Source of the DNA: a virus | Lineage: Duplodnaviria > Heunggongvirae > Uroviricota > Caudoviricetes | Strand: one strand, 5' to 3' | IMG/VR virus record: IMGVR_UViG_2654587685_000017 | Location: 1-18,349 of that record | DNA: 18,349 nt | Shown here: one piece after another, positions 12,001 to 15,000 of the stretch | How positions within the stretch are numbered: the stretch's first letter is position 1 | How the letters are laid out: each line of letters starts with the position of its first letter | Position numbers: made by a program

Positions 12001-15000
12001 GGAAACATGAATAGAGCCCTTTCACCAATGGTTTCTGAATTTGAAACCATTGAACAAGAAAACAGTTACAACGAATGGCTGCGTGCGAAAGTAGCAACGA
12101 GCCTTGCAGATCCGCGCCCAGCAATTCCCCATGACGAAGTTGAGCGCAGAATGGCAGAACGCTTTGCTAAGATGCGCAAGGAACGGAGCAAGCAGTAAAA
12201 TGTTACCCGTGTTATGGCTTGAAAGCGCAGATACCGACCTAGATGATATAACTAGTTATATTGCTCGTTTCGACATAGATGCGGCTGAACGCTTATGGCA
12301 GCGATTAAGGGGTTGTGTGCTGCCGTTATCCGAACATCCGTATTTATACCCACCAAGCGACAGAGTACCTGGCTTGCGTGAGATTGTAGCCCACCCTAAC
12401 TATATAATTCTATACCGCGTAACAACATCAAGCGTTGAAGTAGTAAACGTGATCCACGCAAGACGCCAGTTTCCCTAACTTTCACTACCAATAGAAACAT
12501 AACAACCGCAACGACTTTATCAAAAGCGTTGTGTTTGTTATGTCCCGCGGTTTAGTTTTTACTTGACTTAAGTTTAATGTTTATTAAACTAAAAATACCA
12601 ACCCACCCCGCCCCACAGAACGCAGGGAAATACTTCGAGTTACCCGGCAGTGGTCAGGGGTTAAGTAGCCAGCCCGAGGCGTATGAACATGACGGCAGGG
12701 TTCAACTTTAATAACTATGCAGCAGGTTTTTGTTCCGCTACCCCGGCGTTAAGGGGAAACAGAGGGTTTCTCAGTGGGCGAAGTCAAACATCAGAATGGA
12801 AGGCATCCCGGGATCGGCAAAGAAGCAGCAATGGCGCTTTATATTGACATCAGCGCCATTGCAGGACAGGTAAGAGTTATCAGAGCGGTAACTAAGCGGT
12901 ATGCGCCTTTACTTCAGAAAGTCTCTGGTGAGTGCACCGAAGATATTGTCAACGATTTCGTCATCGAACTGCGAGGACTCATCTTCAGTTACAAGGTGAC
13001 CACAATTTTTGCAGATGGCTCCCGCGAAACTGTCAGAGCCCTGCGGCTTAAAGGATGTGTCAAAGACTTCGCCACCACATTCTGGGCAAGAAAACTTGAT
13101 TGTATTCATAACCAATTTCCTCTCGAGTAACAGACCCCTCAGAGGATACCACCTCGCCTGACGTGGTTAAAAGCAGGCAACGCTAACCACAAGGAGCCGA
13201 CATGCAGAAACGAGAACCCGTCATCATCGCGCCAGACTATACCGATGATGAACTTTATGAGTGGATGCACCAGAAAATTAATGCAGCGCAGGATCTGAAA
13301 TGGGCCAATGAAGCCAGGGCTAAGCAGGCTGAAAATCTGTCCGCTCTGGAGCAGGATATCACCAATCTGGAAAAAGCAGCGGCATTAAGCATTGCCAGAA
13401 TGATTACATACCCGCGTTAATAGCTAACCAACGAAGCTAAGGTTGGTAATTAAGGAGTTCTCCACGGGTGAGGTGGAGTGCGTGCGCCGGACACGGGTGA
13501 GCATACGGCACTGACAGTTTACTGAAAGGATATTTCCCTGAAAAGTCAGACCATAACGCGAAAGCGCACGGCGAGGTAGCTGGTTCATAGATAGCCTGTC
13601 GTTAAATTTTCGTCGACCGTGCGCTTCCGGTTGTGGCAATCCGCGAAATGGCGCGGCGGTAAGTATGGAGGGGTTATTCCTTCCCCCGTTGAGGACACCG
13701 GGTTGTCAGGTTGACCATACGCTTAAGTGACAACCCCGCTGCAACGCCCTCTGTTATCAATTTTCTGGTGACGTTTGGCGGTATCAGTTTTACTCCGTGA
13801 CTGCTCTGCCGCCCTTTTTAAAGTGAATTTTGTGATGCGGTGAATGCGGCTGAGCGCACGCGGAACAGTTAAAACCAAAAACAGTGTTATGGGGGGATTC
13901 TCTGTATCCGGCGTTAATTGTTAACTGGTTAACGTCACCTGGAGGCACCAGGCACCGCATCACAAAATTCATTGTTGAGGACGCGATAATGAAAACGTTA
14001 TTACCAAACGTTAATACGTCTGAAGGTTGTTTTGAAATTGGTGTCACTATCAGTAACCCAGTATTTACTGAAGATGCCATTAACAAGAGAAAACAAGAAC
14101 GGGAGCTATTAAATAAAATATGCATTCTTTCAATGCTGGCCCGTTTACGTCCGATACAAAAAGGATGCTGCACAATGAATACAGCATTTGCACTTGTTCT
14201 GACAGTTTTTCTTGTTTCCGGAGAGCCAGTTGATATTGCAGTCAGTGTTCACAGGACAATGCAGTAGTGTATGACTGCAGCAACCGAACAGAAAATTCCC
14301 GGTAACTGTTACCCGGTCGATAAAGTTATTCACCAGGATAATAACGAAATCCCGGCAGGTCTTTAAAACAGTTCCGTAATAAATATCCGGTTTCATTCTT
14401 ATATGCCAGCAATGGCAGGGATTTGTTCACCCTTAAATCTGTAATGAGGTTAAAACAAAATGAGTAAAGTCTTTATTTGCGCCGCCATTCCGGACGAACA
14501 GACAACAAAGGAAGAAGGCGCAGTCGCTGTAGCCACAGCCATTGAAGCCGGCGACGAACGCCGCGCCCGAGCAAAATTTCACTGGCAATTCCTGGAACAT
14601 TATCCGGCTGCTCAGGACTGCGCTTATAAATTTCTTGTCTGCGAGGATAAACCCGGCATACCCCGCCCTGCCCTCGATTCATGGGATGCTGAATATATGC
14701 AGGAAAACCGCTGGGATGAGGAGTCTGCTTCCTTTGTCCCGGTTGAGACTGAATCAGATCCGATGAACGTCACTTTTGACAAGCTGGCCCCTGAAGTACA
14801 GAACGCTGTCATGGTTAAGTTCGACACATGTGAAAACATCACCGTTGATATGGTGATTAGCGCGCAGGAATTGTTGCAGGAAGACATGGCAACATTCGAC
14901 GGACATATCGTTGAAGCGTTGATGAAAATGCCAGAAGTTAACGCCATGTATCCGGAGCTTAAGCTGCATGCCATCGGGTGGGTTAAGCATAAATGTAAGC

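What the first reader, a model, noticed from the sequence alone, without database searches (positions are those of the whole stretch)
13989..14366. DicB reads in frame into YdfD: a DicB-YdfD(N-term) fusion ending at an amber inside ydfD
The DicB-like frame has no stop after its 62nd codon; it runs straight through the ATG of the ydfD-like ORF and ends at the in-frame TAG, predicting a 92-aa DicB protein with a 30-residue hydrophobic C-terminal extension. From my recollection of the K-12 Qin arrangement (dicB stop overlapping the ydfD start in a different frame), this is consistent with a 1-nt indel near the dicB 3' end. The resulting protein could be a membrane-tethered division inhibitor or an inactive remnant.
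Basis: partly seen in the sequence, partly recalled or inferred. Interest (0 to 1): 0.55.

Follow-up and report, generated by a model that had tools for sequence, protein, structure and literature searches.

The report
Frameshifted dicB fused to truncated ydfD
One extra base at the end of a prophage cell-division-inhibitor gene (dicB) makes it read into the neighbouring lysis gene (ydfD), which is itself cut short by a stop codon also found in other E. coli strains; this is ordinary decay of a well-known prophage gene pair, or possibly a sequencing error, not a new system.

Summary
ATG 13989 opens a 92-codon ORF that ends at TAG 14265-14267. It consists of DicB residues 1-60, then Cys-Thr, then YdfD residues 1-30.

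Two lesions explain it.
- **Inserted C at 14168.** The nearest intact allele (strain HH97; this junction type is in 109 of 5,426 complete E. coli genomes) lacks this base. The insertion destroys the normal ATGA stop/start overlap between dicB and ydfD.
- **GAG>TAG at ydfD codon 31 (14265).** This is an established natural allele in 26 of 5,426 complete genomes, including EPEC E2348/69, where RefSeq annotates ydfD as a pseudogene with an internal stop.

The +1 junction is a singleton. It is absent from all 5,426 complete E. coli genomes and from the viral, genome and metagenome contig collections. The 92-aa protein occurs once among about 15 billion proteins, on the draft contig the window comes from (GCA_001265255.1).

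Published work shows that DicB tolerates C-terminal fusions and loss of its last 8 residues, and that YdfD needs its full length to lyse cells. The likely outcome is therefore a still-active DicB with a hydrophobic tail and a dead lysis gene.

I could not exclude a sequencing error at 14168. Interest is low.

The parts
13989..14267 (+). 92-codon fused ORF: DicB 1-60, then Cys-Thr, then YdfD 1-30, then TAG
   Evidence: translation; PF05358 at residues 1-60, PF07358 at 66-92; residues 1-60 identical to AZ155 DicB
14168..14168 (+). Inserted C (GGATG^C^TGCACAATGA) that shifts dicB by +1 into the ydfD frame. Against AZ155/fS25a-type alleles the same change reads as G>CA at 14171-14172.
   Evidence: HH97 and the L097-L108 alleles lack it; other alleles; the junction is found nowhere else
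14176..14178 (+). Former dicB TGA stop (part of the ATGA overlap), now out of frame for dicB
14175..14177 (+). ydfD start codon, now codon 63 of the fused ORF. Its AAGGA Shine-Dalgarno sequence at 14161-14165 is still present.
   Evidence: a hairpin over the Shine-Dalgarno sequence is predicted
14265..14267 (+). Amber codon: ydfD codon 31 GAG>TAG (G>T at 14265)
   Evidence: the same allele is in 26 of 5,426 complete genomes, annotated 'ydfD pseudogene, internal stop' in E2348/69, FORC 064 and AMSHJX01
14271..14366 (+). Residual 31-codon ORF: YdfD residues 33-63 plus the stop. Its ATG lies 3 nt after the amber.
   Evidence: (PF07358, profile positions 30-57, 38.2 bits)
13763..13814 (+). DicF sRNA, upstream member of the same operon (context)
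   Evidence: RF00039, 76.7 bits
14460..16931 (+). Intact 823-aa exonuclease, the full-length homologue of K-12 pseudogene ydfE (context; downstream gene not affected)
   Evidence: PF16473, E 2e-67

Best explanation
This is a mutated copy of the well-known dicB-ydfD pair in the early leftward operon of a lambdoid (Qin-like) prophage. It carries two independent lesions. The first is GAG>TAG at ydfD codon 31, an allele that circulates in natural E. coli and truncates the lysis protein to 30 residues. The second is one extra C at 14168, which removes the dicB stop of the ATGA overlap. Ribosomes translating dicB therefore continue in the ydfD frame to the amber and make DicB(1-60)-CT-YdfD(1-30).

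Shown here: both lesions, their parent alleles, and their frequencies. Inferred from published mutagenesis: the DicB part probably still blocks division through MinC, because DicB keeps its toxicity when the last 8 residues are removed or when MBP or EGFP is fused to the C-terminus. The lysis function of YdfD is lost, because even a one-residue C-terminal deletion weakens it and the N-terminal domain alone does not work in cells. Overall this is ordinary decay of a toxic prophage cassette. The same prophage also has a stop inside its DnaC-like replication gene.
For: - **Frame and translation:**
- **Single inserted C:** it is the only junction difference from the HH97 allele and from 12 IMG/VR contigs. 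That parent junction is in 109 of 5,426 complete genomes, with intact dicB and ydfD annotated in HH97 and dicB plus a DUF1482/ydfD gene named under the match in the 8 records listed.
- **Amber:** in 26 of 5,426 genomes, annotated as a pseudogene.
- **DicB part:** residues 1-60 are identical to a natural DicB, with Pfam domains as expected.
- **Sequence quality:** window 2315-13504 is identical to strain fS25a with no indel, and the other nearby indel (T at 14450) is a common natural allele with 341 exact records. The contig therefore does not look error-prone.
- **Prophage decay:** a stop inside the replication gene at 9061-9801, shared with fS25a.
- **Literature:** PMC4967827 (DicB deltaC8 and C-terminal MBP/EGFP fusions still prevent colony growth; the N-terminus is essential); PMC8835842 (intact YdfD is required for lysis; residues 1-28 bind IspG in vitro but do not function alone in cells).
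Against: - The +1 junction is a singleton. A 46-mer test found no hit in 5,426 complete E. coli genomes, and exact scans found none in viral, genome or metagenome contigs. The 92-aa protein is a one-member cluster seen on one draft contig. A base-calling or consensus error is therefore not excluded.
- No expression or activity data exist for this allele.
- A hydrophobic tail could make the protein unstable or mislocalised, unlike the soluble MBP and EGFP tags tested in the literature.
- The AlphaFold model was uninformative (mean pLDDT 48).
Confidence: 0.62

Rival explanations
1. The extra C at 14168 is a sequencing or assembly error in a draft genome. The strain really carries a normal 62-aa dicB (HH97 type) followed by the amber-truncated ydfD pseudogene, and no fusion protein exists.
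For: The junction and the 92-aa protein are unique among 5,426 complete genomes, three contig collections and about 15 billion proteins. The source is a draft WGS contig, and the window starts at the contig end, inside a repeated prophage. This region occurs in a median of 2 and up to 9 copies per E. coli genome, which favours mixed-copy consensus errors. Around the insertion the window matches AZ155-type alleles up to GGATGCTG and K-12/HH97-type alleles from TGCACAATGA onward. Other over-long DicB ORFs in the database mostly look error-derived, with multiple frameshifts, some at homopolymers.
Against: The insertion is not in a homopolymer run. The 11.2 kb upstream is base-perfect against fS25a, and the 823-aa exonuclease and the integrase downstream are intact. 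The neighbouring unusual variants (amber, T at 14450) are both confirmed natural alleles. A k-mer assembler cannot invent a junction that is absent from the reads.
Confidence: 0.3
2. The +1 is real but arose by recombination between paralogous prophage alleles, not by point insertion. The AZ155/FORC064-type (GGATGCTG-GCAATGA) and the HH97/K-12-type (GGATG-TGCACAATGA) differ by two compensating indels, and a crossover in the intervening TG keeps both extra bases. The functional outcome is the same as in the best explanation.
For: The window junction GGATGCTGCACAATGA is exactly the left half of one type joined to the right half of the other. The dicB-to-exonuclease segment is visibly mosaic between allele families: differences from fS25a cluster at 13505-16559, after 11 kb of identity.
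Against: Both flanks of the junction already match the HH97-type allele over the whole 3' part of dicB and the 5' part of ydfD, so a single-base insertion is more parsimonious. The recombination route would need crossovers within about 10 nt.
Confidence: 0.15
3. The chimera is a selected, functional new protein. The YdfD N-terminal hydrophobic, IspG-binding segment would tether DicB to the membrane or to IspG and change how or where MinC is recruited.
For: The tail has a Kyte-Doolittle 19-residue mean of 1.87. YdfD residues 1-28 bind IspG in vitro (PMC8835842). DicB acts at membrane-associated targets, ZipA and ManYZ (PMC6832061). C-terminal fusions to DicB are tolerated (PMC4967827).
Against: It is a singleton with no sign of spread or conservation. 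The uncharged core is only 14 residues and is followed by E/P/D. The fusion ends at a pre-existing nonsense mutation, which is what an accident would produce. The few other DicB-YdfD fusions in the database arise from unrelated lesions.
Confidence: 0.05

Closest known systems
dicB-ydfD of the Qin cryptic prophage, E. coli K-12 MG1655 (b1575/b1576), and its alleles in other lambdoid prophages (e.g. HH97 WP_016238837.1 / WP_001365098.1)
   Same: Same genes, order and operon context: ydfC, DicF, dicB, ydfD, exonuclease, xis, int. DicB residues 1-60 are identical to natural alleles. The ydfD codons are all present and collinear.
   Different: One extra C at 14168 abolishes the ATGA stop/start overlap and joins the frames. 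ydfD codon 31 is TAG.
ydfD pseudogene allele of EPEC E2348/69 (E2348C_RS28290) and 25 other complete genomes
   Same: Identical GAG>TAG nonsense at codon 31; annotated 'internal stop' by PGAP.
   Different: Where checked (E2348/69, AMSHJX01 and FORC 064), those genomes keep a normal 62-aa dicB with its own stop, and no complete genome carries the +1 junction. In the window dicB runs on to that amber.
Laboratory C-terminal fusions of DicB (DicB-MBP, DicB-EGFP; Yang et al. 2016, PMC4967827)
   Same: An intact DicB N-terminus with foreign sequence appended at the C-terminus; those constructs remain toxic.
   Different: The appended part here is a 30-residue hydrophobic peptide, not a soluble domain, and it arose naturally (or by error). 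Its activity is untested.
Other aberrant long DicB ORFs in public assemblies (P0034 108 aa, P0032 124 aa, P0033, P0053, P0077)
   Same: DicB joined to YdfD sequence by lesions at the gene boundary.
   Different: They arise from different lesions: an in-frame deletion, or several frameshifts (for P0032, by my reading, two single-base homopolymer deletions). None shares the window's junction.

Membership tests
DicB (Pfam PF05358), MinC-dependent division inhibitor | Sequence match to the family model above the curated cut-off | tested here: met
   124.9 bits against a cut-off of 27; residues 1-60 match profile positions 1-60 of 62. Residues 1-60 are 100% identical to AZ155 DicB.
DicB (Pfam PF05358), MinC-dependent division inhibitor | Intact N-terminus (K2 present, L5), shown to be essential by mutagenesis (PMC4967827) | tested here: met
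   The N-terminus MKTLLPNV is identical to K-12 DicB.
DicB (Pfam PF05358), MinC-dependent division inhibitor | A protein of about 62 aa ending at a TGA that overlaps the ydfD ATG | tested here: not met
   The stop is lost through the C insertion at 14168, and the ORF is 92 codons.
DicB (Pfam PF05358), MinC-dependent division inhibitor | Causes MinC- and ZipA-dependent filamentation when expressed | not testable with these tools
   Needs expression in wild-type and minC-mutant strains. The literature suggests C-terminal extensions are tolerated (PMC4967827).
YdfD lysis protein (Pfam PF07358, DUF1482) | Sequence match to the family model | tested here: met
   The match is split in two: residues 66-92 of the fusion match profile positions 1-27 (31 bits), and the 31-aa ORF at 14271-14366 matches profile positions 30-57 (38.2 bits). 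The cut-off is 25.
YdfD lysis protein (Pfam PF07358, DUF1482) | Uninterrupted 63-codon reading frame (the intact protein is required for lysis, PMC8835842) | tested here: not met
   TAG at codon 31. PGAP calls the same allele a pseudogene in E2348/69, FORC 064 and AMSHJX01.
YdfD lysis protein (Pfam PF07358, DUF1482) | Own translation start coupled to the dicB stop (ATGA overlap) | tested here: not met
   The ATG at 14175 and the AAGGA Shine-Dalgarno sequence remain, but the dicB frame no longer terminates there.
Naturally maintained gene fusion (conserved two-domain protein) | The same fusion is present in independent genomes or lineages | tested here: not met
   No occurrences in 5,426 complete genomes or in three contig collections. 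The protein cluster has one member.

The most novel reading that the evidence does not exclude
The 92-aa chimera is real and active. DicB would carry the hydrophobic, IspG-binding N-domain of YdfD and so act as a membrane- or IspG-associated division inhibitor with altered MinC targeting, with YdfD's lysis activity removed. It would be a natural example of a toxic two-gene prophage cassette remodelled into a single new small protein.
Probability: 0.07. Interest if true: 0.35.

Novelty: already known. Interest (0 to 1): 0.1.

Why it matters
It matters little beyond annotation. The locus should be annotated as dicB (frameshifted or extended) plus a ydfD pseudogene, not as a new protein.

Two side points have modest value. 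First, the ydfD amber allele is shared by 26 complete genomes on more than one allelic background, which is consistent with repeated or spreading loss of a toxic lysis gene in resident prophages. Second, the fusion would be a ready-made natural test of how much C-terminal baggage DicB tolerates.

Tried and rejected
- **Structure prediction.** I ran AlphaFold2 on the 92-aa ORF with a 46-sequence alignment. Mean pLDDT was 48 and pTM 0.23. It only hints at helices at 28-57 and 65-77, which is too weak to use, so no fold search was run.
- **Programmed frameshifting.** I considered whether slippage at the CAAAAAG run just upstream could restore a normal DicB. This was checked by eye only, from the sequence and ORF list. 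A -1 slip there enters the third frame (...RMLHNEYSICTCSDSFSCFRRAS*) and does not reach the old TGA, and a +1 slip after 14168 has no slippery motif. I rejected the idea.
- **Error-prone assembly.** I rejected this as a general explanation, because 11.2 kb is identical to fS25a and the other local indel is a common allele. An isolated error at 14168 remains possible.
- **Masuda et al. 2016.** The original ydfD paper (PMC5975272), which I wanted for the transmembrane claim, is not held. I relied on what PMC8835842 reports about it.
- **30-aa YdfD database entries.** Looking these up as evidence for the amber was misleading: 9 of the 10 places shown are truncations at contig ends and only L007 is a real amber. 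I replaced this with the 46-mer test.
- **RNA folding of the junction.** The hairpin over the ydfD Shine-Dalgarno sequence is also present in normal AZ155-type alleles, so the insertion creates nothing new there.

Full report
**1. What is in the sequence**

Reading from ATG 13989, the frame stays open for 92 codons and stops at TAG 14265-14267. The product is MKTLLPNVNTSEGCFEIGVTISNPVFTEDAINKRKQERELLNKICILSMLARLRPIQKGC-CT-MNTAFALVLTVFLVSGEPVDIAVSVHRTMQ.

- Pfam places DicB (PF05358) on residues 1-60 (124.9 bits) and DUF1482/YdfD (PF07358) on residues 66-92 (31 bits).
- Residues 1-60 are identical to the DicB of strain AZ155.
- After the TAG the same frame continues C-MTAATEQKIPGNCYPVDKVIHQDNNEIPAGL to the normal ydfD stop at 14364-14366. 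The 31-codon ORF at 14271-14366 matches the C-terminal half of DUF1482.

**2. How it differs from normal alleles**

In K-12 MG1655, dicB and ydfD overlap by ATGA and lie in different frames. Three junction types were seen among intact alleles:

| Allele type | Junction |
|---|---|
| K-12 | GGATGTGCACAATGAATTC |
| AZ155 / fS25a / FORC 064 | GGATGCTGGCAATGAATAC |
| HH97 | GGATGTGCACAATGAATAC |

References for the table.

- The window reads GGATGCTGCACAATGAATAC, which is the HH97 type plus one C at 14168, with identical flanks.
- The HH97-type junction occurs in 109 of 5,426 complete E. coli genomes and in 12 IMG/VR contigs. HH97 itself has intact dicB and ydfD annotated, and the 8 records listed name dicB and a DUF1482/ydfD gene under the match.
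- The second lesion is G>T at 14265 (GAG>TAG, ydfD codon 31).

**3. How common each lesion is**

I used 45-46-nt queries centred on each variant. Each flank is shorter than megablast's 28-nt word, so only records that carry the variant itself can match.

| Variant | Result |
|---|---|
| +1 junction at 14168 | no match in 5,426 complete genomes |
| Control: extra T at 14450 | 341 records match exactly, so the method works |
| Amber at 14265 | 26 genomes |

- The amber genomes include EPEC E2348/69, FORC 064 and AMSHJX01, where PGAP annotates 'lysis protein YdfD, pseudogene, internal stop'.
- The amber sits on both K-12-type and FORC064-type backgrounds.
- Exact 22-mer scans for the +1 junction found nothing in IMG/VR, GTDB species genomes or JGI metagenomes.
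- The 92-aa protein is a one-member cluster among about 15 billion proteins, seen only on NCBI draft contig JHRA01000013.1 of GCA_001265255.1. The gene's position on that contig matches its window coordinates, so this contig is evidently the window's source.

**4. Is the insertion real or an error?**

This cannot be settled without reads.

For a real mutation:
- Window 2315-13504 is base-identical to strain fS25a.
- The differences cluster in a mosaic dicB-to-exonuclease patch (13505-16559) made of known natural variants.
- The insertion is not in a homopolymer.
- The 823-aa exonuclease and the integrase downstream are intact.
- The prophage shows other decay: a stop inside the DnaC-like gene at 9061-9801, shared with fS25a.

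For an error:
- The junction is absolutely unique.
- The source is a draft contig that begins inside a multi-copy prophage region, with a median of 2 copies per genome.
- The junction looks like a blend of two allele types.
- The database holds other over-long DicB ORFs that arise from multiple frameshifts and mostly look error-derived.

I put roughly 0.6-0.7 on a real mutation and 0.3 on an error.

**5. Likely consequence**

This part is inferred, not shown.

- Yang et al. 2016 (PMC4967827) found that DicB lacking its last 8 residues, and DicB with MBP or EGFP fused to its C-terminus, still prevent colony formation, whereas any N-terminal truncation weakens it. The window's DicB has an intact N-terminus and loses only residues 61-62, so division inhibition through MinC is probably retained, provided the protein is stable.
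- Lu et al. 2022 (PMC8835842) found that lysis needs intact YdfD. Deleting even one C-terminal residue reduces killing, and the N-terminal domain (1-28) binds IspG in vitro but cannot function alone in cells. The amber therefore abolishes lysis, as the RefSeq pseudogene annotation also implies.
- The appended 30 residues are hydrophobic (Kyte-Doolittle 19-residue mean 1.87). The uncharged core is only 14 residues (TAFALVLTVFLVSG) and is followed by E, P and D, so a true membrane span is uncertain.
- AlphaFold gave no confident model.
- The ydfD Shine-Dalgarno sequence (AAGGA, 14161-14165) and its ATG remain. A free 30-aa peptide and a re-initiated 31-aa C-terminal peptide are conceivable but speculative.

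**6. Context**

The cassette sits in the early leftward operon of a lambdoid prophage. The order is a PaaA2/ParE toxin-antitoxin pair, ydfC, DicF sRNA (13763-13814), dicB, ydfD, exonuclease, xis, int. This matches fS25a, where the prophage lies next to potC.

**7. Verdict**

The feature is a singleton frameshift allele stacked on a known nonsense allele of a known gene pair. That makes it ordinary prophage gene decay or a base-call error. It is not a new system, and its interest is low.

Noticed in passing
window 14265-14267; loci L004, L109, L110, L007: The ydfD codon-31 amber (GAG>TAG) is a circulating natural allele. It is in 26 of 5,426 complete E. coli genomes, including EPEC E2348/69, and in one metagenome contig. 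It occurs on both K-12-type and FORC064-type dicB-ydfD backgrounds, which suggests spread by recombination or recurrent loss of the lysis gene.
   Followed up: partly
window 9061-9801 (-): The DnaC-like ATP-binding replication gene has an internal stop after codon 64, identical in strain fS25a where PGAP marks it as a pseudogene. The prophage is probably defective.
   Followed up: partly
window 13763-13814 (+): DicF sRNA (Rfam RF00039, 76.7 bits) lies upstream of dicB, as in Qin.
   Followed up: yes
window 6741-6916 (-) and about 6591-6746 (-): A sok antisense RNA (Rfam RF01794, 113.5 bits) sits next to a hokD toxin gene, forming a type I toxin-antitoxin module.
   Followed up: no
window 1351-1540 (-): STnc100 sRNA (Rfam RF02076, 132.4 bits) lies in a segment (723-2223) that is not collinear with the otherwise near-identical fS25a prophage.
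   Followed up: no
window 2237-2313 (-) and 2415-2490 (-): Two prophage tRNA genes: tRNA-Arg (anticodon tct) and a CAT-anticodon tRNA. ARAGORN calls the latter Met, whereas PGAP in fS25a calls it Ile. A cluster of substitutions against fS25a lies at 2228-2314, in and next to the Arg tRNA.
   Followed up: no
window about 12007-12478 (+): A PaaA2/RelB-like antitoxin plus a ParE/RelE-family toxin pair sits between the immunity region and ydfC.
   Followed up: no
window 14162-14190 (+): A predicted RNA hairpin (AGGATGCT / AGCATTT) covers the ydfD Shine-Dalgarno sequence. It is also present in normal AZ155-type alleles, which fits translational coupling of ydfD to dicB.
   Followed up: partly
proteins P0034, P0032, P0039, P0040, P0042, P0096: Public assemblies contain other aberrant DicB ORFs. 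One is an in-frame deletion fusing DicB 1-60 to YdfD 17-63 (108 aa). Another is a 124-aa full fusion which, by my reading of the sequence, arises from two homopolymer deletions. Several are 76-81-aa forms that run into the third frame. Lesions therefore recur at the dicB 3' end, or errors are common there.
   Followed up: partly
window 14450: An extra T in the exonuclease ribosome-binding region (GAGGTTAAAAC) looked like a second singleton indel against fS25a, but it is a common natural allele with 341 exact records.
   Followed up: yes
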